IMG/VR virus record: IMGVR_UViG_2778261567_000015
Span: 1 to 10,781 of that record
Strand: one strand, 5' to 3'
DNA from: a virus
Taxonomy: Duplodnaviria; Heunggongvirae; Uroviricota; Caudoviricetes
DNA: 10,781 nucleotides
In this document: positions 538 through 10,781 of the stretch, piece after piece
Position numbering within the stretch: position 1 is the stretch's first letter
Layout of the letters: each line of letters opens with the position of its first letter
Made by a program: the position numbers and the translations under genes
The notes under the pieces: model-generated
Seen by the model: the letters and a program-made list of their open reading frames with translations, nothing else
The model's database searches: none
What the model was told of the DNA's origin: nothing

Positions 538-1080
538 TTACTCGCCTTTCTTCTGTAGCAACTTTTCCGGTACGTCTCCGGTAGTTTCCATCAGGTAATC
601 AGCCAGTATCTTCGGGAGGTTGTCGGCAACTGTGGCACTGGCATTACAGGCTTTAGCCACTTCCTTTTTAAGTCCATCCAGCATGGCGGGGGTCATCTGT
701 GGGAATCCCCTTTGCATAGTAAGCGGGAGGCTGTCCATGATTGAAGAAATCTGGTTCGCCAGCTTTGAAAGCGCGTACAGGCAAAAACCTGTATCAATCA
801 CGTCGCCGCGTTCGCGCTCGTTTTTAAGCTCCTGCGCCTCCGCCTGGGCCGTCAGTAATCGGATTCTTACGCGTAAAAGTTCATCATCGTCGATATCGCC
901 TTTGTCGTTTGTAACCTGGTCAATTGCATTGCTTACCCGATTGTCTATCACGCTGGCAACATCGTAAAAAGCCTCGCGGCCTTTACGTTCAACGGGAGTC
1001 ACTCCCCACTTGTCGAACGCTGTCGCACTTACACGGCAGCTTTGCGCCATAGTTTTTTTGTTCATCAGGTGCGATTTCAT
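538..1080 (-). CDS. phage small terminase subunit, lambda Nu1 family (TerS-like)
   Basis: Translation aligns by eye to lambda Nu1 along most of its length (e.g. LLTAQAEAQELKNERERGDVIDTGFCLYALSKLANQISSIMDSLPLTMQRGFP versus Nu1 RLTRAQADAQELKNARDSAEVVETAFCTFVLSRIAGEIASILDGLPLSVQRRFP). Start is ambiguous: GTG 1092, ATG 1080 (GTGGGGA SD upstream) or ATG 1065 (MNKKT, matching Nu1 MEVNKKQ). Confidence 0.8.
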   Translation of the reverse strand: MKSHLMNKKTMAQSCRVSATAFDKWGVTPVERKGREAFYDVASVIDNRVSNAIDQVTNDKGDIDDDELLRVRIRLLTAQAEAQELKNERERGDVIDTGFCLYALSKLANQISSIMDSLPLTMQRGFPQMTPAMLDGLKKEVAKACNASATVADNLPKILADYLMETTGDVPEKLLQKKGE

Positions 1081-1092
1081 CAATATCCCCAC

Positions 1093-1401: not shown

Positions 1402-1737
1402 TTATCGCGCCAGCGGCTGAACGGATACGCCAGAACCCGCAAAGGCGGCGCATTTTTTCGCGTCAGTGTCGACGCTCTCAGGCCAGTTTACGGCGGCGAT
1501 ATTAAATATCCCCGTCTTGTAACACTGTGCTGATTTCTGCTTTGACGTGTCCACAGGGTACGAGGTCAGATAAACAGCCTTGCCAGATTCCTGACCATCC
1601 CACGGCTTAAACTCGCCATTGTCCGCCAGCATCAGCGGGGTAAATTCCTGAATGACGCCAGCATCAGCGGCAAAATGTACCAGCGTCGTGGATACCTGCT
1701 GACTGCCTGCAAATAACTCAATGTATGGAGTGTTCAT
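1402..1737 (-). CDS. head decoration protein, lambda gpD-like (111 aa)
   Basis: Same length as gpD and shared blocks TPLMLAD, WDG, and GIFNIAAVNWPES...KKCAAFAGSGVSV versus gpD GTFRYEDVLWPEA...KKRTAFAGTAISIV. GGGGGA SD before the ATG at 1737. Confidence 0.75.
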   Translation of the reverse strand: MNTPYIELFAGSQQVSTTLVHFAADAGVIQEFTPLMLADNGEFKPWDGQESGKAVYLTSYPVDTSKQKSAQCYKTGIFNIAAVNWPESVDTDAKKCAAFAGSGVSVQPLAR

Positions 1738-1748
1738 AGAATCCCCCG

Positions 1749-2804
1749 TTAACCAATTTTGACGGTAACAAATTTGCGAATATCTGCTGGTACCGGCTGC
1801 GGTGCGCTGTGCGTCTGAACGTACTCAATCGCCGGATCGCCGTCTTCAATCCAGTTTTTCGGGTAGTACATGTTTTGCGTTGCACCAGTTCTTACCGCTT
1901 CCTGATCCATAATCGCGCCATAGGCCACCAGCCCTTTATTGTTGGTGTTGCCCAGGACCAGCAAATCAGGCTCAAGGAAATATTTTTCGGTACCGTCGCT
2001 GTCAGTGTATTTGCCGGAATAGACGATAAGGGCCAGATCTCCCAGATAGCCTTTAAAGCTCACCACTTCGCCCAGGTTTTTACAGGCCAGTTCGGCGGCG
2101 GATTCTGAACCACGGGAAAGATCGTACAGCTCACGGAATTTTTTAAAGCTGCGTAACGTGCGCCATACCTCAGCGCCCATAATCATGACGTTGGCGGGGC
2201 AACCTGCCTGATCTGCGTATAGTTCGATGTCATAGATTGGATCGTAAATATCTTTATCATGCTCGGACCATTTTTTACCCTTGGCCTGCTCTATGATGCA
2301 GTTTTCCGGTATTTTCCAGTCGATTTCATAGCGTTCTATGCCTTCGCCCTCAATGATGTTTTTTCCGGTCGTGACCGCATTTACAGCCAGCCATTCAACA
2401 CGCGCTTTAATGGCGTTTATCTGGCGGCGCATGTTGCCAGTAATCAGGCGCATACGGCGGTAGGTAGGGTCGTTAAGCAGTGCCGGATCTTCTCCAGCCA
2501 TGCGCATTATCGTTTTTAATGGATCGATTTCGTGCTTTGGCTTCATGTAGCCTGGTTTAATCGTGCTGGTTTCGTACCCTTTATCGCGCTGAACCTGGCT
2601 ACCCACCACAGGCGAACAAAACGCCGATATAGTGACTTCTTCAATGTCCAGGTTATCAAGCATGATGTTCTGGGTGCTGAATGTCGCCACGTTCGGGAAA
2701 AACAGTGTGGTAAACAGCGGACTGAATTTATATTCCGCAATATCCCCGCGATTCAGGTACGTGAAAAGCTGATTAGTTGTAAGTGCTGTTGCTTTTACTG
2801 TCAT
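1749..2804 (-). CDS. major capsid protein, lambda gpE family (351 aa)
   Basis: Multiple long blocks match lambda gpE from memory: KFSPLFTTLFF/KFDPLFLRLFF, KPGYMKPKHEIDP/TPGYVKPKHEVNP, DPTYRRMRLITGNMR/DPAYRRRRIIMQNMR, WSEHDKDIYDP/WSKRDKSTYDP, FKGYLGDLALIVYSGKY/YKGMYGDVAIVVYSGQY, YPKNWIEDGDPA/YPKNWVTTGDPA. GGGGGTG SD; start overlaps the upstream stop (TAATG). Confidence 0.9.
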   Translation of the reverse strand: MTVKATALTTNQLFTYLNRGDIAEYKFSPLFTTLFFPNVATFSTQNIMLDNLDIEEVTISAFCSPVVGSQVQRDKGYETSTIKPGYMKPKHEIDPLKTIMRMAGEDPALLNDPTYRRMRLITGNMRRQINAIKARVEWLAVNAVTTGKNIIEGEGIERYEIDWKIPENCIIEQAKGKKWSEHDKDIYDPIYDIELYADQAGCPANVMIMGAEVWRTLRSFKKFRELYDLSRGSESAAELACKNLGEVVSFKGYLGDLALIVYSGKYTDSDGTEKYFLEPDLLVLGNTNNKGLVAYGAIMDQEAVRTGATQNMYYPKNWIEDGDPAIEYVQTHSAPQPVPADIRKFVTVKIG

Positions 2805-3010
2805 TATTCACCCCCGTGAACCTGATTCATACCCAGCGCCGCGCGTAAATAGGCGCGTACCTGCCAGCCTGTTGACGGCTCAACCATCGCCAGCGGATCA
2901 AGTCCTGCCGCAATGCCTGCTTTTACGTTCTGCTGGTGGCGTTCCTTGAGCGCCTTCACGATGTCGGGGCTTATGTACACCGAAACACCGCCTTTTTTCT
3001 CTTCAGCCAT
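2804..3010 (-). CDS. hypothetical protein (68 aa), first gene of the morphogenesis operon
   Basis: ATG at 3008-3010 with AGAGGA SD; stop overlaps the capsid ATG (translational coupling). No family recognised. Confidence 0.5.
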   Translation of the reverse strand: MAEEKKGGVSVYISPDIVKALKERHQQNVKAGIAAGLDPLAMVEPSTGWQVRAYLRAALGMNQVHGGE

Positions 3011-4208: not shown

Positions 4209-4395
4209 TTTTACGCCTCACTTTTTAAAGCGTCTCGCTTCGTCTCACTTGAGATTTTTGTGTTTTGTATGTGCATGTTTCATAAGTATTTTTTTACTCC
4301 TCACTTTTGAGCATGTATACAGGTGAGAAAGTGAGTAATCGTGTTAATATTTTGTAAAAACCTCACCATTACTCACTTTTGCTACTCACTTTTTA
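4193..4395. repeat. iteron-like array, candidate replication origin
   Basis: At least 7 direct copies of (C)TCACTTTT (e.g. 4203-4213, 4216-4227, 4296-4308, 4371-4380, 4384-4395) plus inverted GTGAG copies (4323-4335) in AT-rich DNA immediately 3' of the replication ATPase gene. Confidence 0.5.
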
Positions 4396-5790
4396 CAGTG
4401 GTCCTACATCATCACCATCAATGTAAATCACGGCGTCTTTTTCCAGTTTGGCTAACCATCGCCGCATATTTTTCACGTCATACCCAAGCCGTTTCATGTC
4501 ATCACGTAACAGCGGGATCGTGCACTTGTCGCCGTTCTGTGTACGTGAACGGATGCACCCCCATAGCGCGGTATGGTTTTCCGTCTTGTTGCCTGCCTCC
4601 TCGATGCGCTCCAGTTCAACGGGAGGGCGCGGCTTATCCACCACCACCAGCGACGTGATTAACTCCCCGTCAGCGTCGGTAAAAAGCTCCACCACCCGCA
4701 AATCATAGGCAGCCTCTTTGAGTTCCTCCGCGTCCTTCATTTTGGTGCATGAGATAACCAGCGCTTCGCTTCCTGCGTCCTCCCTGCGTATCCGGTATTC
4801 AGCATCCAGCGAAGCACGAAATGCACTGGAACCGCGCGCGCCTTTCGTCTCATCCTTGCCGGAATGGTGAACCACCAGCACCGTGGCCCCTGTGCGCCGT
4901 TTCAGTTCGTCACAACCACGGATAAACGCCCCCATATCACGGGAATCATTTTCATCATTGCCACCAAAGCACCGCGCCAGCGTATCCAGAATAATCATGC
5001 GTACAGGTTTACCCGTTTCCCGCTCCACCTGACGGGCAGCGATAACCAGTTCATCAACATCAAGCGGGACAGCCGGAAAGACCGGACGGTTTACCAGATA
5101 CAGATTTTTCACCTGCTCCCCGTGTACAACCTCCCACGCTCTCACGCGACGCGGTACACCAATACCGCCTTCACCAACCACATAGAGAACAGCGCCATGT
5201 GCAACCCTGCGGCCTCCCCACTGGCGGCCCGTGGAAACGTGACACGCCCACGAACCCGCAAGGAATGATTTATAGGAACCGCTTGCCCCGTATATGCTGC
5301 ATAGCGACGATGCCGGAATAATCCCCTTTACCACGTAATCTAATTGCGTGTCGTATCCGGCAGATCCAACGCTCATCGGTAGCGTGGTTTTTCGCTGGTG
5401 GCTCAGGCTTTCCCCGCGTTCCCATGTCTCCCTAAGCCGTGGAAGCTGGTCGCTCCATTCCTCCAGCAATTCGAAATTTTCAGAAAACAGGCGCGCTTCC
5501 TGGACTCCTGCGATTGCCAGTTTCGTGGCGATGGTTAACAACTGCACTTCGTCAATATTTCCGGCACGTATCACTTTCGCCCTGAACCGACCTTTATCAA
5601 CAATCTGCAAGTTATCCAGTTCGCTTAACTGATAACGCCCCAGGTAAACGGGAGGGACTGGATCGCCTGCTTTTTTGGCCTGTGCAATGATGTAGTGCTC
5701 TGCAAATGAGTGAGCATTATCACCCGCAAAAATAACCGCTTCGGTGTGTTTATCTTTCGGTAACAGTTTTACATTCGGTGCCAGTTTCAT
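4393..5790 (-). CDS. replication ATPase / helicase, RepA-DnaB-type RecA fold (465 aa)
   Basis: Walker A-like GASGSYKS, Walker B-like RMIILDT, VLVVHHSGK motif typical of RepA-like helicases; C-terminal basic domain. Start overlaps the upstream ORF stop (ATGA). Confidence 0.8.
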   Translation of the reverse strand: MKLAPNVKLLPKDKHTEAVIFAGDNAHSFAEHYIIAQAKKAGDPVPPVYLGRYQLSELDNLQIVDKGRFRAKVIRAGNIDEVQLLTIATKLAIAGVQEARLFSENFELLEEWSDQLPRLRETWERGESLSHQRKTTLPMSVGSAGYDTQLDYVVKGIIPASSLCSIYGASGSYKSFLAGSWACHVSTGRQWGGRRVAHGAVLYVVGEGGIGVPRRVRAWEVVHGEQVKNLYLVNRPVFPAVPLDVDELVIAARQVERETGKPVRMIILDTLARCFGGNDENDSRDMGAFIRGCDELKRRTGATVLVVHHSGKDETKGARGSSAFRASLDAEYRIRREDAGSEALVISCTKMKDAEELKEAAYDLRVVELFTDADGELITSLVVVDKPRPPVELERIEEAGNKTENHTALWGCIRSRTQNGDKCTIPLLRDDMKRLGYDVKNMRRWLAKLEKDAVIYIDGDDVGPL

Positions 5791-6086
5791 TTTTTACCCC
5801 TGAATCCGTTAATCATGGTTTTCAGCTTCTGGATGTTTGCCCGTGCTCTGGCGTTGCTGGTGGGCACGTTATGCGGCGCGGTCTGTACCAGAGAAAAATC
5901 ACGCCGGAACTGATAAACAGGCATCACGCAATCATATTCGTAACCTTCACGGCGGTAAGTTACGCACCGTCCCGCCACGCCCTTAATCATTACCGTGCCG
6001 CCGTACTGGTCGCGGTAAATATCACCGCGCGTAAATTTAGGGTGAGTGTTGCCACTGGCAGTTAAGCCAGAATATTTAAGTTTCAT
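5787..6086 (-). CDS. hypothetical protein (99 aa), coupled to the replication ATPase
   Basis: Complete ORF; 4-nt overlap with the downstream ATPase start. No family recognised. Confidence 0.5.
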   Translation of the reverse strand: MKLKYSGLTASGNTHPKFTRGDIYRDQYGGTVMIKGVAGRCVTYRREGYEYDCVMPVYQFRRDFSLVQTAPHNVPTSNARARANIQKLKTMINGFRGKK

Positions 6087-6091
6087 TATTT

Positions 6092-6325
6092 TTATTCTCC
6101 GGTGTGCTGTTCTTTATATCTGTCGTGCAATAGATCTATTTCTTGCAGTTCCATTATTACAGGCTCAAGAAGCGTTATTAATGCCGTGGCAATTCTTGAT
6201 TTTTGTTTGTCGCGTTCATTGTCGCCAAGTGTTTCAAGCCATATGCGCAATATTTCCAGCATGTTTTCACTGTGAGAAAGTGCAAGAAATGCGCGGTATA
6301 TTGTTTCGTGGTAAATATCACGCAT
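6092..6325 (-). CDS. hypothetical small acidic protein (77 aa)
   Basis: ORF in a tightly packed co-directional operon; start 2 nt after the upstream stop; Glu/Asp-rich. Confidence 0.5.
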   Translation of the reverse strand: MRDIYHETIYRAFLALSHSENMLEILRIWLETLGDNERDKQKSRIATALITLLEPVIMELQEIDLLHDRYKEQHTGE

Positions 6326-6326
6326 A

Positions 6327-6548
6327 TTAATCCCCGTCCGTCGTTTTTCTTAAAATAACCTCTGTCACGAAATCAGCATAATCGGCGGCGATATTCAGTA
6401 CATCAAGCCCCGTTGATTTATATTCTCTCGTGGAAAGTAAGAAAAAAGCCGCTCTAATAAGTTCTGGCATTGACGAAAGCGCATCAGCCGCATCATCAGG
6501 AACGCCGGAAAATTCCTGTTTCAGGGAATTAAAACGATCATCACGCAT
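6327..6548 (-). CDS. hypothetical small acidic protein (73 aa)
   Basis: Start chosen at ATG 6546-6548 (MRDD...), with GGGGTGGG upstream and just before the upstream gene's stop. The track's longer start at 6596 overlaps the upstream gene. Confidence 0.45.
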   Translation of the reverse strand: MRDDRFNSLKQEFSGVPDDAADALSSMPELIRAAFFLLSTREYKSTGLDVLNIAADYADFVTEVILRKTTDGD

Positions 6549-6762
6549 AACCCACCCCATTTTCACAATCAGCAACAAGAATATTTTTAGCGTCATTCAG
6601 CGACCGCGTGGCGGTGTATCGGATACATTCCAGGGCGAACTGTGTCCGGTCTTTCTGTTCTTCTCCCTGCGCAAGCTCTGCCGTGCATTCAATATCAATA
6701 AGCGCGTGCATCAGCGTAGTGAGTGCGGCGGCGGCTGCGTCCGGTGTGGTTTTATTGCACAT
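6541..6762 (-). CDS. hypothetical small acidic protein (73 aa)
   Basis: Start chosen at ATG 6760-6762 (MCNKTT...), preceded by GGAGGGG SD and overlapping the upstream stop. Confidence 0.45.
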   Translation of the reverse strand: MCNKTTPDAAAAALTTLMHALIDIECTAELAQGEEQKDRTQFALECIRYTATRSLNDAKNILVADCENGVGYA

Positions 6763-6983
6763 GTACCCCTCCGCATTTTTTTTCGTTAGAAATAAGCGTT
6801 CTTCTTTCCTGTTCATCGCTCAGGAATACGCAGACCTCACCGCTAAGGCGTTTAAGTAAGCCGATGATTGCCCCTGATTCGCTGTCGGTCATCATGCCAG
6901 GGTAATCCTCTGCCAGTGCGCAAATAACTTCGATTTGGTGGGCGCGTTCTGCTGCCTGTTGTAGCGTGATTTCCTGGCTCATA
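6752..6983 (-). CDS. hypothetical small acidic protein (76 aa)
   Basis: Start at ATG 6981-6983 overlapping the stop of the Icd-like gene (ATGA); ends at the TAA at 6752-6754. Confidence 0.5.
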
Positions 6984-7146
6984 AGCCTACCCCCTGACGA
7001 ATACGGGCGACAAAAATAAGATGTGCGTGCGGCAGCTGGGCGCGGGCTTCGCGTTCTGTTGCTGCCGTGACGGTAAAGAGTGAGGTTTGTTTTTCCTGGC
7101 ACTGCATAAAGCGCCAGACAAAGTAAGGGCGTGCGGATACAGCCAT
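6979..7146 (-). CDS. Icd-like small protein, paralog 2 (55 aa)
   Basis: ATG at 7144-7146 with AGGAGCC SD. Paralogous to 7433..7630 (FVWRF...TEREAR...FVARIRQG). Family name 'host cell division inhibitor Icd-like' is from memory. The track ORF extending to 7482 is treated as a non-functional extension. Confidence 0.5.
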   Translation of the reverse strand: MAVSARPYFVWRFMQCQEKQTSLFTVTAATEREARAQLPHAHLIFVARIRQGVGL

Positions 7147-7149
7147 GTG

Positions 7150-7432
7150 AAAGGCTCCTGTAGTGAAATTAAGGAGTCTCGCTACTACGCTGCTAAACGG
7201 GGTGGCGAGACGTAACAGGGTTAGCAGACTGGCACTACAGGAACCAGCGAGCGCAAAGGCTCCCCCGTTACGCCCCGCCATAATGCGGGTATGGGTAGGT
7301 TTACGGACACAAAAAAACCGCATATCGGAATGTAAGCGGCTGTCCGCTGTAGTATTCAGGCTGCTAAACCCGGTCGCCATGTGGGCGATGGGTGAAGCAT
7401 ACAGCCCCGTGATAATTTTTTGCAAGCGGTTT
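7150..7432 (-). other. structured spacer between the Icd-like paralogs; candidate riboregulatory leader
   Basis: Open in both strands with no convincing protein. Contains two direct GCTGCTAAAC copies (7189-7198, 7360-7369) and the complementary GGGTTAGCAGAC (7218-7229); inverted CCTGTAGTG/CACTACAGG (7158-7166 / 7233-7241) overlapping the SD of the 7146 gene; weak hairpin plus 7-nt U-run on the minus strand at 7311-7339. Confidence 0.3.
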
Positions 7433-7630
7433 TTACGCATGATGTGACCCCTGACGAATACGGGCGGCAAATACAGCAACACAACCGGACGGGCAACGGT
7501 TACGCGCTTCGCGTTCCGTCCAGGCGGTTACGTGGATTATTTGAGATTCTCCGGCACTCAGTGCCAGAAAACGCCACACAAAGGCCGTTTGTGTGTGTAC
7601 AAGGTGTGGTATATGATTTACAGCAACCAT
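7433..7630 (-). CDS. Icd-like small protein, paralog 1 (65 aa)
   Basis: ATG at 7628-7630 with AGGAGCC SD; motif FVWRFLAL...TAWTEREARNR...FAARIRQG. First gene downstream of the minus-strand promoter at 7732-7761. Confidence 0.55.
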   Translation of the reverse strand: MVAVNHIPHLVHTQTAFVWRFLALSAGESQIIHVTAWTEREARNRCPSGCVAVFAARIRQGSHHA

Positions 7631-7700
7631 AACGGCTCCTAGTTTACGTTGTTGGTTAGAAGCCCCGTATGTGTTCCAGCACTGCGGGGTTTCGTCTTTT
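7585..7700. repeat. copy 1 of a ~115-bp duplicated unit (5' leader plus first codons of the Icd-like gene)
   Basis: Shares with 8330-8447 the blocks CGTTTGTGTGTGTA, CCATAA, TGGTTAGAAGCCC and a GC hairpin followed by a T-run (7663-7700), in the same order and spacing. Confidence 0.6.
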
Positions 7701-7719
7701 CTGTACCTTGCATCAACAA

Positions 7720-7802
7720 GGTGTAAGACACAATGTAAAATAACGGTGTCTTACACGTCAACCCTTCAAAATATTTTTTTTTCGTGTATATTGTCTTACA
7801 CC
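7720..7802. promoter_or_regulatory. divergent promoter pair with inverted-repeat operator
   Basis: Inverted repeat GGTGTAAGACAC (7720-7731) / GGTGTCTTACAC (7745-7756) and a third half-site TGTCTTACACC (7792-7802). Minus-strand promoter TTGACG (complement of 7756-7761) and TACATT (complement of 7732-7737). Plus-strand promoter TTCAAA (7765-7770), 16 bp, TATATT (7787-7792). Confidence 0.45.
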
Positions 7803-7822
7803 AAAAACATGAGGGGTTAAAC

Positions 7823-8002
7823 ATGGCAACGGGTCCAAAGAATGCAAAATCACAATCTGTAACTGCACGTATTGCCCATGAAATTATTGAAGGCATGGAG
7901 AACGTGAAAGAAGAAGGTGAAAGCACGGGGCAGTTTATAAACGCAGCCATGCGCGGCGAAATCAAACGCCGCCAGCGTCGCAAGGCCAAAGAATCAGAAT
8001 AA
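7823..8002 (+). CDS. ribbon-helix-helix (CopG/Arc/MetJ-type) DNA-binding protein (59 aa)
   Basis: ATG at 7823 with GAGGGG SD. Predicted beta-strand QSVTARI followed by two helices (AHEIIEGMENVKEEG, STGQFINAAMRGEI) and a basic tail. The track's GTG start at 7784 lies inside the promoter and is not favoured. Confidence 0.55.
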   Translation: MATGPKNAKSQSVTARIAHEIIEGMENVKEEGESTGQFINAAMRGEIKRRQRRKAKESE

Positions 8003-8059
8003 TCACTATCAGCGCCGTGGTGTGAGGTACTACGGCGCATTGCTTTACAGGGCAGTACC

Positions 8060-8287
8060 ATGACCAACAACACACTATCACCAATACAAGACACGCAAAC
8101 GCAAGATGATGAAATCATCCGGCAAAGGCAGTCAGAAGCCTGCGCCAGACTTGAGGAAGAACTAACCAGAACAAAAATACCACCACCAGCGCCGCGCTTA
8201 GTGCCACCAGAAAAATTTGCCCTTGAAGATTTTGTCGATAAATACCCACGGCGGCTTAAATCCGGCAAAAACCGACCGCCAGGATGA
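8060..8287 (+). CDS. hypothetical protein (75 aa), acidic N-terminus, Pro-rich centre, basic C-terminus
   Basis: ORF downstream of the RHH gene on the same strand. Weak SD (AGGG 12 nt upstream). Followed by hairpin GAAACGGA-TTAT-TCCGTTTC (8308-8327). No family recognised. Confidence 0.4.
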   Translation: MTNNTLSPIQDTQTQDDEIIRQRQSEACARLEEELTRTKIPPPAPRLVPPEKFALEDFVDKYPRRLKSGKNRPPG

Positions 8288-8329
8288 GTGCACAAAACCG
8301 AACTCTGAAACGGATTATTCCGTTTCCGG

Positions 8330-8447
8330 GGCGTTTGTGTGTGTATAAAGAGTAAGCTATGCTCTTTTATAGCCATAATCTTTACCTCAATTAATGGTTT
8401 GGTTAGAAGCCCGTTGGTGTTCATAGCGCCAGCGGGCTTTGCTTTTT
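8330..8447. repeat. copy 2 of the duplicated leader unit, carrying a remnant Icd-like start
   Basis: Same block order as 7585-7700. Minus-strand ATG at 8374-8376 with SD GAGGTA encodes MAIKEHSLLFIHTQT (compare MVAVNHIPHLVHTQTA) and then loses the Icd-like sequence. GC hairpin 8409-8437 plus T-run 8438-8447. Confidence 0.55.
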
Positions 8448-8506
8448 GTGTTGATTGTGTGTAATGTGTCACTACACATAAATACATTACATGAGGTGTA
8501 ATTAAC

Positions 8507-8686
8507 GTGTCAACACACAAAAACGAAAGGCGTGGTAATCCTCCGTTCCAGTTCCGTTTAGATCCTGACTTACGGGAAAAGATGGAAAAGGCACAACAAC
8601 ATGACGGCGATGATTCTCTTGCTGCCTGGATAAAGCGAATAATCCGCAAAGAATTACAGCAACGCGGCATAGAACCCAAAGGGTAA
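8507..8686 (+). CDS. Arc/Mnt-type ribbon-helix-helix repressor (59 aa, GTG start)
   Basis: GTG at 8507 with GAGGTG SD 8 nt upstream; stop TAA at 8684-8686. PPFQFRLDPDLREKMEKAQQ...SLAAWIKRIIRKEL resembles P22 Arc (PQFNLRWPREVLDLVRKVAEE) and Mnt (PHFNFRMPMEVREKLKFRAE). Absent from the ORF track because it is under 60 aa. Confidence 0.55.
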   Translation: MSTHKNERRGNPPFQFRLDPDLREKMEKAQQHDGDDSLAAWIKRIIRKELQQRGIEPKG

Positions 8687-8836
8687 TTACATTGCCCACC
8701 AGCCTGATAGCGGCTATCATTCCCGTGCTTATGTTTGGGATCACATACACATAAGGCGCAGCAGGTTAATTGTTCACAAGGGCGTTCCGGCAACGGGGCG
8801 CTTTTTGTTATGTTCATCGTGTTATGCCTCACACCA

Positions 8837-9043
8837 TTACGCAGCCGTTCCGCGTGCTTCCTGCTCACGTTCTTTCATCCATGCGATTACGTCTTCCTCA
8901 TACCATCCGCGACGGCGTAAACCAACGCGAAAACCCTGCGGAAATTCTCCGGCGTTGATCATGCTTTGAAGCGTGCTGTCTGCCTTGATGTAGATAAGTT
9001 TTTTTACTTCCTGGCGAAAGATGACTTTTTTGATTGCTTCCAT
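8837..9043 (-). CDS. alpA: AlpA-family phage transcriptional regulator (68 aa)
   Basis: ADSTLQSMINAGEFPQGFRVGLRRRGWYEEDVIAWMKERE fits the AlpA/Vis MerR-like HTH pattern (...GxFPKPxKLGxRxxxWxxxEVxxW). Position next to the integrase is typical. Confidence 0.75.
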   Translation of the reverse strand: MEAIKKVIFRQEVKKLIYIKADSTLQSMINAGEFPQGFRVGLRRRGWYEEDVIAWMKEREQEARGTAA

Positions 9044-9539: not shown

Positions 9540-10781
9540 CTAAACGGCTCGGATACCCCTTTTACCACTGGCGAGGGTTACGCCCGTCGCCGCAGCCTCG
9601 ACAAATTCGCCCCACCAGCGCATAAGCACCACGCGTTTTTCTATGTAGTTGCTCCGGTTGTATGCCCGTCTCACTTCGTTAGTGTCGACGTGGGCAAGTG
9701 CGGCCTCGATTACGTCCGGCTCGAATCCTTCCTCGTTCGCTGCTGTACTGAATATGGCGCGTAATCCATGAGACACCAGCACGCCAGCGAACCCCATGCG
9801 TCGTAATGCTGCGTTTGCTGTCTGGCTGTTCATTGGCTGCCGTGGGTCTTTCAGACTCGGGAAAACATAATCGCGGTGGTGGCTGATTGGTTTCATGGCC
9901 TCCAGCACCGCCATAGCCTGACCGGAAAGTGGGATAACGTGATCCCTGCGCATCTTCATGCGTCCGGCGGGTATCGTCCAGCGTTGCGCGTCCAGGTCGA
10001 TTTCATCCTACCGCGTTGATGACGCTTCGGCGGGACGGGTTACGGTCAGTAACTGCCATTCAATCAGTAATCTGGTCTGCCGTTCTGTTGCCGATACTGA
10101 TAAAGCCTGCATAAGCTCCGGCAACTGTTCGGGGCGGATTGTTGGCATATGTTTTTTTACAGGGGAGGGGAACGCCTTACGCACATTCATAGCCGGATTG
10201 GCATCAATCAGCCCACTGTTGGCGGCGTAATCCATTACCTCATTAACGCGCTGTAAAACCCGTTTGAGTGTTTCCAGGTTGCCGCGCTCCTTGATGGGGG
10301 TAAGCACCTCAACGAACCTGCGAGCGGTCAGGGTGTCTATTGGGGTGTTGCCGATGAACGGGAATACATATTTATCCAGCGATCGCCAGATGTCTTTAAT
10401 CGTGTTGGGGGCCAGATTCTGGCTGATTTTCACCTGGTACCATGCCGCCGCCACATTTTCGAACGTGTTCCCTTGTCTTCGGGCCTCTGCCTCTCGTTTT
10501 TTCTTCTCATGGCCCTGCGGGTCAGTTCCGGCACTGATTAACGCTCTGTACTCGCTACGGCGTTTTCTGGCATCAGCCAGGGAAACATCATCAAGCGATC
10601 CAAAACTCAGCAATATTCTTTTTTTGTCCGATGGCCGGTAGTAGGAAAATCGCCAGAGTTTTGATCCGGACGGTTTGACCAGGAGAAAAAGCCCTCCGCC
10701 GTCCTGTAGGGTGTATTCCTTTTCCGCTGGTCTGGCTGCTTTGATCTGCACCGTGGTTAATGGGGGTGTTTTTCTCGCCAT
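9540..10781 (-). pseudogene. int: P4-type tyrosine integrase interrupted by a single in-frame TAG
   Basis: N-terminal ORF 10011-10781 (GGGLFLLVKPSGSKLWRFSYY...) and C-terminal ORF 9540-9959 (HGLRAIF, RRAYNRSNY) are in the same frame, separated only by TAG (complement of 10008-10010). Read-through gives ...SSTR*DEIDLDAQRWTIPAGRMK..., where related integrases usually have Trp, consistent with TGG to TAG. Start codon is at the window edge. Confidence 0.75.

What the first reader, a model, noticed from the sequence alone, without database searches (positions are those of the whole stretch)
6092..6983. Four consecutive, translationally coupled small acidic proteins between the Icd-like genes and the replication ATPase
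Genes at 6752..6983, 6541..6762, 6327..6548 and 6092..6325 are each 73-77 aa, strongly Asp/Glu-rich, with overlapping or abutting start/stop codons and no family I recognise. Small acidic early proteins in phages and satellites are often DNA mimics or inhibitors of host or helper functions; that role here is inference only.
Basis: inference. Interest (0 to 1): 0.5.

Follow-up and report, generated by a model that had tools for sequence, protein, structure and literature searches.

The report
Small accessory genes in a phage satellite
The four small genes are real, conserved genes of unknown function in the early operon of a common E. coli phage satellite, but nothing here shows that they are DNA mimics or inhibitors.

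Summary
Four back-to-back minus-strand genes (6752-6982, 6541-6762, 6327-6548, 6092-6325; 76/73/73/77 aa) have Shine-Dalgarno sites and overlapping or abutting stops and starts. They match four PHROG families of unknown function, evolve under purifying selection and recur on hundreds to thousands of E. coli contigs. They are only mildly acidic (15-19.5% D+E, net -5/-6), about a third of the charge density of the DNA mimic Ocr.

The window is an EcCICFT073/OI-51-type PICI, and the prototype carries the same four genes. They do not abut the ATPase: the RgdR (DUF4222) gene lies between. Upstream is a C4 antisense RNA whose loop is complementary to the Shine-Dalgarno site of the second Icd-like gene. 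The layout copies P1 c4-icd-ant and P4 CI-eta-epsilon-ORF151-cnr-alpha, so the coupling probably relays that RNA gate to the replicase.

The four families are unrelated to each other and all-helical. The slot between Icd and DUF4222 is combinatorial, holding 1-4 genes from at least seven families. B+C and A+B+C occur as natural fusions.

Function remains unknown. My best guess is small protein-binding modulators of helper or host. DNA mimicry is unsupported. The finding is ordinary but uncharacterised.

The parts
6752..6982 (-). orfA, 76 aa, phrog_1478. The conserved core is about residues 1-62; the C-terminal tail varies because of the A8 tract.
   Evidence: Relatives occur in the early-left operons of Fels-1 and Klebsiella temperate phages.
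6541..6762 (-). orfB, 73 aa, phrog_5146 (also the N-terminal half of phrog_2512). Conserved N-terminus MCNxxxPDAA.
   Evidence: Commonly fused to orfC in other E. coli.
6327..6548 (-). orfC, 73 aa, phrog_24341 (also the C-terminal half of phrog_2512). Conserved M(R/Y)DDRFxxLK...G.P.DA.
   Evidence: Found fused to B, to A+B, or to an unrelated X domain.
6092..6325 (-). orfD, 77 aa, phrog_2196, predicted two-helix hairpin. Its last codons (HTGE) carry the Shine-Dalgarno site of the next gene.
   Evidence: pLDDT 94. No significant fold match.
6776..6783 (-). A8 homopolymer at the orfA/orfB junction. A7 alleles fuse A to B(+C); alleles consistent with one extra A (inferred from their protein tails) give a different tail.
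   Evidence: Sequence; protein variants P0081, P0093, P0246-P0250.
5787..6086 (-). DUF4222 / RgdR orthologue, 99 aa, pI 10.2, RGD at residues 20-22. Starts 5 nt after the orfD stop; its stop overlaps the replicase start (ATGA).
   Evidence: PMC3378721; CFT073 synteny.
4393..5790 (-). Replication ATPase (AAA_25 / RepA-type helicase), the last gene of the coupled chain.
6979..7146 (-). Short Icd-like ORF (icd2), ATG at 7146. The same frame is open up to the ATG at 7440, giving an Eta-like long form that overlaps the icd1 stop by 8 nt.
   Evidence: NCBIfam NF033153; PHROGs shared with the P4 eta/cI ORF; sequence.
7198..7285 (-). C4-type antisense (immunity) RNA.
   Evidence: Rfam RF01695, 72.2 bits against a gathering score of 45, E = 6.6e-13. 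The same model finds the P4 CI RNA.
7153..7165 (-). a2-like target CACUACAGGAGCC, which contains the Shine-Dalgarno site of short icd2. It is complementary over 13 nt to the C4 loop. A b2-like UUAGCAG lies at 7190-7196.
7311..7402 (-). Upstream a1/b1-like target motifs and an isrK/seqA-like hairpin followed by a U-run.
   Evidence: Rfam RF03163, 36.2 bits (below gathering score, E = 2.9e-6) and RF01394, 29.6 bits (below gathering score); complementarity.
7433..7630 (-). First Icd-like gene (icd1), the head of the coupled chain.
   Evidence: NF033153, E = 5e-18; phrog_1743/29966.

Best explanation
**What is shown**
- The four ORFs are genuine accessory genes of the early (replication) operon of an EcCICFT073/OI-51-type, P4-related phage-inducible chromosomal island.
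- They encode four mutually unrelated, all-helical, mildly acidic proteins of about 65-77 aa.
- They lie in a combinatorial cassette slot between the Icd-like/Eta-like gene and the RgdR(DUF4222)-replicase pair.

**What is inferred by analogy with P1 immI and P4**
- The chain icd1 > eta/icd2 > A > B > C > D > rgdR > rep is translated as a coupled relay.
- In the immune state the C4 RNA pairs with the icd2 Shine-Dalgarno site.
- With no ribosomes on icd2, the downstream genes, including the four ORFs and the replicase, stay silent through loss of coupling and through polarity.
- After helper induction, translation entering from upstream carries expression through the chain.

**What is inferred with weak support**
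- The products act as small protein-binding modulators of helper-phage or host proteins. This is what epsilon does in the same slot of P4 and Ant does in P1.
- A, B and C probably work as one assembly, because they are repeatedly found fused.
- They are not core replication or packaging functions, because any of them can be absent.
For: **Reality and conservation of the genes**
- Established.

**Identity of the element**
- The window has int, AlpA, PerC, SSB, lambda-type capsid E, decoration D and a Nu1-like gene.
- It is collinear with E. coli CFT073 1377764-1393349. There the same four ORFs (231/222/222/234 nt) precede C1493/RgdR and the primase (PMC3378721; PMC6092414).

**The RNA gate**
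- C4 RNA scores 72 bits.
- Its loop has 13-nt complementarity to the icd2 Shine-Dalgarno site.
- The P4 CI RNA is hit by the same model, in the same order relative to an Icd-like ORF. That ORF is followed by epsilon, ORF151, cnr and alpha with 8-nt overlaps.
- In P1, Ant expression depends on C4 and on icd translation (PMC8201110).
- In P4, eta translation prevents termination of the downstream genes (PMC10111431).

**Coupling**
- Overlaps or gaps of at most 5 nt are read from the sequence.
- The same 8-nt overlaps recur in eight other loci.

**Cassette nature of the slot**
- Nine architectures drawn from at least seven families were found.
- They sit next to RepA, D5/DUF5906 or DUF927 replicases and next to different late modules.

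**Natural fusions**
- B+C occurs in more than 100 clusters, some on 150-260 contigs.
- A+B+C occurs on about 70 contigs.
- X+C also occurs.

**Structure**
- All predictions are helical, and orfD is a confident hairpin.
Against: - No binding partner, phenotype or expression data exist for any of the four.
- None matches the epsilon (PF25738), Ant/AntA, ORF151 or Cnr families. The epsilon/Ant parallel is therefore positional only.
- C4 is absent from single-icd variants, including CFT073 and O157 OI-51, so the RNA gate is not universal for these genes.
- In EcCICFT073, lambda interference is explained by RppA alone.
- The AF2 model of the A+B+C fusion has low confidence (pLDDT 45) and gives no support for a defined complex.
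- B and C also occur without each other.
Confidence: 0.45

Rival explanations
1. They are replication accessory factors. On this view they are small regulators or adaptors of the satellite replicase or host replisome, like P4 Cnr, which is encoded just upstream of alpha and controls copy number.
For: - They always lie immediately upstream of, and are co-translated with, the replicase.
- In P4 the cnr/ORF106 gene lies directly upstream of alpha. That Cnr controls copy number is established knowledge, not tested here.
Against: - The same A-B-C-D set is found with two unrelated replicases, RepA helicase and D5-type primase.
- The related cassettes also precede DUF927 replicases.
- Any one family can be missing.
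- orfA relatives sit in temperate-phage early-left operons far from replication genes.
- No match to DUF5375/Cnr was found.
Confidence: 0.15
2. They are partners or neutralisers of the adjacent basic proteins. On this view the acidic proteins bind and buffer the Icd-like division inhibitors (pI 10.3-10.8) or the non-specific DNA binder RgdR (pI 10.2).
For: - There is a sharp charge contrast inside one coupled operon.
- The Icd > cassette > DUF4222 order is invariant.
- RgdR binds DNA non-specifically and is thought to need a cofactor (PMC3378721).
Against: - The cassette content varies while Icd and DUF4222 stay the same.
- Cloned RgdR alone complements its type III secretion phenotype without the upstream genes.
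- No direct evidence exists.
Confidence: 0.12
3. They act as a translational relay only. On this view the act of translating the region matters, because it keeps Rho off the transcript and passes ribosomes to rgdR and rep, and the protein products are unimportant.
For: - The chain of overlaps is unbroken.
- P1 and P4 provide precedents in which translation of the first ORF controls downstream expression.
- Frequent frameshift, fusion and deletion variants are tolerated.
Against: - dN/dS is 0.16-0.45.
- Each family keeps a conserved amphipathic pattern down to 35-50% identity.
- orfA relatives persist in phages without this operon.
- Elements with a single small ORF show that four are not needed as spacers.
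Confidence: 0.08
4. They are DNA mimics or anti-restriction proteins. On this view they imitate DNA to block restriction enzymes, RecBCD or other DNA-binding defences.
For: - They are the most net-negative proteins of the window.
- They are expressed early, and they are small.
Against: - Net charge per residue is -0.07 to -0.08, against -0.24 for Ocr.
- No hit to any Pfam, NCBIfam, PADLOC or PDB family.
- The orfD model is a generic helical hairpin with no significant structural neighbour.
Confidence: 0.07

Closest known systems
EcCICFT073 (E. coli CFT073) and O-island 51 / CP-933C of O157:H7: cos-type Gram-negative PICIs
   Same: - Same gene order: int, alpA, Icd-like, small ORFs, RgdR/DUF4222, replicase, SSB, PerC, capsid E, decoration D, Rpp/Nu1-like.
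- orfA-C are 99.6-100% identical in nucleotide sequence to the CFT073 copies and orfD is 88% identical.
   Different: - The window has a RepA-type helicase instead of the CFT073 primase.
- It has a second Icd-like gene plus a C4 RNA, which CFT073 lacks.
- Its integrase carries an in-frame stop.
- O157 OI-51 carries a different cassette set, Y-A-D'.
Satellite phage P4 left operon: CI RNA, eta/kil, epsilon, ORF151, cnr (ORF106), alpha
   Same: - A C4-family RNA with an isrK/seqA-like element upstream.
- An Icd-like ORF sharing phrog_1743.
- A run of small ORFs with 8-nt overlaps leading to the replicase.
- The four ORFs occupy the slot of epsilon, ORF151 and cnr.
   Different: - No sequence relationship between A-D and epsilon, ORF151 or Cnr.
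- P4 has no DUF4222 by Pfam.
- The helpers differ: lambdoid phages for EcCICFT073 and P2 for P4.
Phage P1/P7 immI operon: c4 RNA, icd, ant1/ant2
   Same: - An antisense RNA with two loops complementary to repeated targets. One target covers the icd ribosome-binding site.
- The downstream gene is coupled to icd by an ATGA overlap.
- Ant expression depends on C4 and Icd (PMC8201110).
   Different: - The genes after icd are not Ant homologues.
- The operon here continues into a replicase.
- There are two Icd-like genes.
DNA-mimic proteins such as T7 Ocr
   Same: Small, early and net negative.
   Different: - Three- to four-fold lower charge density.
- No sequence or fold similarity.

Membership tests
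EcCICFT073-type Gram-negative PICI | Inward-facing integrase, alpA, a replicase with a small-gene operon, no tail or lysis genes, about 10-15 kb, and synteny with the prototype. | tested here: met
   Pfam hits; collinearity with CFT073 1377764-1393349; criteria from PMC6092414. The att sites and the right end of the element lie outside the window.
PHROG families 1478, 5146/2512, 24341 and 2196 | Significant full-length HMM match. | tested here: met
   E = 2.9e-28, 1.4e-12, 3.8e-37 and 3e-41, covering nearly the whole profile. All are annotated 'unknown function'.
C4/Icd-gated operon (P1 immI / P4 immunity type) | C4-family RNA above the Rfam gathering score. | tested here: met
   RF01695, 72.2 bits against 45.
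C4/Icd-gated operon (P1 immI / P4 immunity type) | C4 loops complementary to repeated targets, one of which covers the ribosome-binding site of the icd-like ORF. | tested here: met
   A 13-nt duplex with CACUACAGGAGCC at 7153-7165, 7 nt before the ATG at 7146. A second 7-nt target is present on both sides of C4.
C4/Icd-gated operon (P1 immI / P4 immunity type) | Downstream genes depend on icd translation (coupling or polarity). | not testable with these tools
   The ATGA overlap icd2/orfA and the unbroken chain of overlaps are seen. Dependence itself needs reporter fusions.
P4 epsilon (Pfam PF25738, Derepression protein family) | HMM match to PF25738. | tested here: not met
   No Pfam hit at E <= 1 for A, B or C, and only a sub-threshold chance hit to Adeno_E4 (E = 0.073, 14 bits against a cut-off of 27) for D. 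P4 epsilon itself scores 9e-51. BLAST between them gives nothing below E = 0.08.
P4 epsilon (Pfam PF25738, Derepression protein family) | Binds the helper repressor and derepresses the helper prophage. | not testable with these tools
   Needs induction assays with lambda or phi80 lysogens.
P1 Ant / AntA-AntB antirepressors | Sequence membership in the Ant/AntA families. | tested here: not met
   No Pfam or PHROG hit. AntA-family genes occur elsewhere in related PICIs.
DNA-mimic / anti-restriction proteins (Ocr, ArdA type) | Very high and patterned negative charge (about 25-30% D+E, pI about 4 or lower). | tested here: not met
   15-19.5% D+E and -0.07/-0.08 charge per residue, against 29% and -0.24 for Ocr.
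DNA-mimic / anti-restriction proteins (Ocr, ArdA type) | Sequence or fold similarity to a known mimic. | tested here: not met
   Only orfD has a usable model; A-C could not be tested by fold.
Known anti-phage defence systems (PADLOC) | HMM match to a defence-system component. | tested here: not met
   No hit at E <= 1 for the four ORFs or their neighbours.

The most novel reading that the evidence does not exclude
The slot between the Icd-like gene and DUF4222 in enterobacterial PICIs is a dedicated, recombining hotspot. It would hold small helper-takeover or counter-defence proteins, comparable in logic to anti-CRISPR or P2/P4 defence hotspots. Elements would mix and match at least seven families (A, B, C, D, X, Y, Z) to suit their helper or host. 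A, B and C would form one multi-subunit effector that can be encoded split or fused.
Probability: 0.25. Interest if true: 0.6.

Novelty: new member of a known kind. Interest (0 to 1): 0.35.

Why it matters
These genes occur in about a quarter of complete E. coli genomes. The 2-kb Icd-to-DUF4222 block that contains them matches 1449 of 5426 genomes at least in part, and the adjacent DUF4222 gene matches 1443. They are also present in the model Gram-negative PICI, yet nobody has assigned them a function. If they manipulate helper phages or host defences, they would explain part of how these very common satellites choose and exploit helpers, and would add new small-protein tools. If they only tune the satellite's own cycle, they are a routine annotation gap. 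The practical gain here is a corrected gene model and a testable regulatory picture: a C4 RNA gate followed by a coupled relay to the replicase.

Tried and rejected
- **Family and structure searches.** Pfam, NCBIfam and PADLOC scans of the four proteins and of family alignments found nothing. PDB sequence and profile searches found nothing.\n- **AF2 of the natural A+B+C fusion.** I hoped to see the three domains pack together. The model reached only pLDDT 45, which is unusable, so I ran no fold search on it.\n- **Fold searches with the orfD model.** Searches against PDB and BFVD returned only generic helical hairpins, with the best E-values at 0.39 (PDB) and 0.23 (BFVD).\n- **Paralogy among A-D.** hhalign probabilities were all below 2%, so the array is not a tandem duplication.\n- **Homology to P4 proteins.** No relationship to epsilon, ORF151 or Cnr was found. 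A weak RgdR-ORF151 BLAST hit (E = 0.09) was not backed by Pfam or PHROGs.\n- **GTDB species scan with orfD.** It found one locus only, in Shigella flexneri, so it said little about spread.\n- **Word-indexed homologue search for orfA.** It returned only 22 close variants.\n- **P0274.** This 477-aa apparent fusion of the C domain to a large protein looks like a mis-called ORF and was disregarded.\n- **Cluster 2.** It mixes orfB with long Icd-like ORFs. This is a clustering artefact, not a fusion.\n- **Programmed -1 frameshifting at A AAA AAA.** orfB lies in the +1 frame, so this was rejected. A8 is by far the dominant allele, so phase variation is not supported either.\n- **Literature.** Searches on locus tags and EcCICFT073 found no functional work on these genes.

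Full report
**1. Observation**

On the minus strand there are four consecutive ORFs:

| ORF | Coordinates | Length |
|---|---|---|
| orfA | 6752-6982 | 76 aa |
| orfB | 6541-6762 | 73 aa |
| orfC | 6327-6548 | 73 aa |
| orfD | 6092-6325 | 77 aa |

The junctions, read from the sequence, are:
- The upstream Icd-like ORF ends in ATGA with the orfA start.
- A and B overlap by 11 nt, with GGAGGGG before the orfB ATG.
- B and C overlap by 8 nt (ATGCGTGA).
- C and D are 1 nt apart.
- D is followed after 5 nt by a fifth gene (5787-6086). That gene's stop overlaps the start of the ATPase (ATGA).

So the four genes do not abut the ATPase. A DUF4222 protein lies between.

Composition is D+E 15-19.5%, net charge -5/-6 and pI 4.4-5.1. 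These are the most net-negative proteins per residue in the window. Their charge density is only about a third of that of the DNA mimic T7 Ocr, which has 29% D+E and -0.24 charge per residue.

**2. Are they genes?**

Yes.
- Each matches a PHROG family of unknown function over nearly the full profile: phrog_1478, 5146, 24341 and 2196, with E = 1e-12 to 3e-41.
- The exact proteins are on record from >=1000, 126, >=1000 and 652 contigs.
- An exhaustive phmmer search of 1.84 billion representatives with a natural A+B+C fusion found only 64 representatives. Among them are stand-alone relatives of A, B and C at 35-55% identity with conserved amphipathic patterns.
- dN/dS in the informative comparisons is 0.16-0.45.

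Pfam, NCBIfam, PADLOC and PDB sequence or profile searches give nothing. Profile-profile comparison shows the four families are unrelated to one another.

**3. What the element is**

The window carries:
- a tyrosine integrase;
- an AlpA-like gene;
- two Icd-like genes;
- DUF4222;
- an AAA_25/RepA helicase;
- SSB and PerC;
- lambda-type capsid E and decoration D;
- a Nu1-like gene.

The region around the four genes matches 1449 of 5426 complete E. coli genomes at least in part.

The prototype Gram-negative PICI, EcCICFT073, has the same four ORFs (231/222/222/234 nt) in the same place. They are followed by C1493, the RgdR orthologue (PMC3378721; PMC6092414). orfA-C are 99.6-100% identical in nucleotide sequence to the CFT073 copies and orfD is 88% identical.

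The published work on EcCICFT073 tested only genes downstream of the origin for interference. It found that deleting rppA almost fully restores lambda plaquing (PMC6739421). In O157, the T3S-activating activity of the cloned z1835-z1843 fragment mapped to rgdR (the region between z1841 and z1842), and rgdR alone complemented it. I found no functional study of the four genes.

**4. Regulatory setting**

Rfam finds the following:
- a C4 antisense RNA at 7198-7285 (72 bits; gathering score 45);
- upstream of it, a1/b1-like targets;
- an isrK/seqA-like hairpin.

The last two score below their gathering thresholds.

The C4 loop GGUUCCUGUAGUG is complementary over 13 nt to CACUACAGGAGCC at 7153-7165. 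That sequence contains the Shine-Dalgarno site of the short Icd-like ORF (ATG at 7146). A second 7-nt target lies on both sides of C4.

The same Rfam models find the P4 CI RNA and seqA. In P4 they are followed by an Icd-like ORF (shared phrog_1743), epsilon, ORF151, cnr and alpha, with 8-nt overlaps.

Two precedents bear on this:
- In P1, Ant expression depends on C4 and on icd (PMC8201110).
- In P4, translation of eta prevents termination of the downstream genes (PMC10111431). That paper also already noted C4 and isrK hits in Gram-negative PICIs.

The long form of the second Icd-like ORF (ATG at 7440) overlaps the stop of the first by 8 nt. The coupled chain therefore runs icd1 > eta-like/icd2 > A > B > C > D > rgdR > rep.

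This is an argument by analogy and is untested.

C4 is present only in the two-icd variants (window, L001, L002). It is absent from CFT073, O157 OI-51 and others.

**5. The slot is combinatorial**

I compared thirteen loci in all; ten are listed below:

| Locus | Cassette content |
|---|---|
| window, CFT073, L002 | A-B-C-D |
| L001 | A-(B+C)-D |
| O157 OI-51 (L012) | Y-A-D' |
| L013 | D'' alone |
| L014 | C' alone |
| L015 | B-X-C-X' |
| L006 | B-(X+C)-X' |
| L005 | Z-C |
| L007 | B-D'' |

Further observations:
- The order is kept, no family is universal, and the slot holds 1-4 genes.
- The replicase downstream may be RepA, a D5/DUF5906 primase or DUF927, and the late module also varies.
- B+C fusions are very common (more than 100 clusters, some on 150-260 contigs).
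- A+B+C fusions occur on about 70 contigs. They differ from the window at an A8 tract (6776-6783), which is A7 in the fusions.
- Deletion variants joining C to D, or removing C, also exist.
- orfA relatives also occur in the early-left operons of Fels-1, Klebsiella temperate phages and an unnamed prophage, just downstream of the repressor.
- B, C and D were not found in the phage collection.

**6. Structure**

AF2 gives orfD as a two-helix hairpin (helices 2-32 and 37-75). pLDDT is 94 for the best model, but the five models range from 60 to 94. Foldseek against PDB and BFVD gives only generic hairpins, best E = 0.39 (PDB) and 0.23 (BFVD). The A+B+C fusion is predicted all-helical but at pLDDT 45, so its packing cannot be read.

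**7. Interpretation**

| Status | Claim |
|---|---|
| Shown | Real, conserved, coupled early genes of a known satellite type, in a variable cassette slot, under a C4/Icd-type gate in this variant. |
| Inferred | The relay function of the coupling. |
| Weakly inferred | The products are small protein-binding modulators of helper or host (the epsilon/Ant slot), with A-B-C acting together. |

Independence from replicase type and the dispensability of each family argue against a core replication role. Low charge density and the absence of any match argue against DNA mimicry. Purifying selection argues against mere spacer ORFs.

**8. Verdict**

The interpretation cannot be decided here. The finding is an ordinary but widespread annotation gap in a known system, made somewhat more interesting by the fusions and the cassette shuffling.

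Noticed in passing
window 7198-7285 (-), with targets at 7153-7165, 7190-7196 and 7353-7402: A C4/CI-type antisense RNA lies between the two Icd-like genes. Its loop is complementary to the Shine-Dalgarno site of the second Icd-like ORF. RefSeq annotation of related loci shows only a 153-aa 'Icd-like' CDS across this stretch and no RNA gene.
   Followed up: yes
window 6979-7440 (-): The second Icd-like ORF has a long form that starts 8 nt before the stop of the first Icd-like gene and spans the C4 RNA. This resembles P4 eta, whose short form is Kil. The long form has weak PHROG hits to Ash/Bro-type regulators (phrog_995 and 821, E about 0.01), as P4 eta does more strongly.
   Followed up: partly
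window 10008-10010 (-), inside the integrase 9540-10781: The integrase is collinear with a 413-aa integrase of E. coli RM14516 (95% identity in one frame) but is interrupted by an in-frame TAG. This copy of the island may therefore be unable to excise or integrate by itself.
   Followed up: partly
window 5787-6086 (-): The DUF4222 gene is an orthologue of RgdR (ECs1581/C1493), the O157 prophage regulator of type III secretion and motility. It keeps the RGD motif at residues 20-22 and is strongly basic (pI 10.2).
   Followed up: partly
window 6092-6106 (-) and the equivalent positions in L007, L013 and L014: Whatever family the last cassette gene belongs to, it ends in ...HTGE or ...HTGK. These codons (CAC ACC GGA GAA TAA) contain the Shine-Dalgarno site of rgdR. 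The protein tail is therefore constrained by the next gene's ribosome-binding site.
   Followed up: partly
window 6776-6783 (-): An A8 run at the orfA/orfB junction is a hotspot for length variants in public assemblies. Protein variants consistent with seven, eight or nine A's give an A-B fusion, the separate genes seen here, or a third tail. It is unclear whether the rare variants are real alleles, transcriptional slippage products or sequencing errors.
   Followed up: partly
window 6323-6325 and 6546-6548 (starts of orfD and orfC): orfC and orfD both begin with ATGCGTGAT (MRD). Public variants that lack orfC or join C to D suggest recombination between these short repeats. The window itself switches from 100% (orfC) to 88% (orfD) identity with CFT073 at this boundary.
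   Followed up: partly
window 7639-8868: The 409-aa minus-strand ORF listed here is probably spurious. Related loci annotate short plus-strand genes in this interval, including a YlcI/YnfO-family protein that corresponds to 8507-8686 (+). This would be a divergent unit between alpA and the Icd operon.
   Followed up: no
window 538-1092 (-), 1402-1737 (-), 1749-2804 (-): A Nu1-like small-terminase/Rpp-type gene, a lambda D-like decoration gene and a lambda E-like capsid gene lie here. They are the counterparts of the EcCICFT073 late genes, which are the only part of that island tested for helper interference.
   Followed up: no
L006 3061-3564 and L015 3227-3592 / 2808-3008: A further small domain (X) occurs twice in some islands. 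One copy is fused or adjacent to the C family and the other stands alone just before DUF4222, at 34% identity to each other.
   Followed up: no
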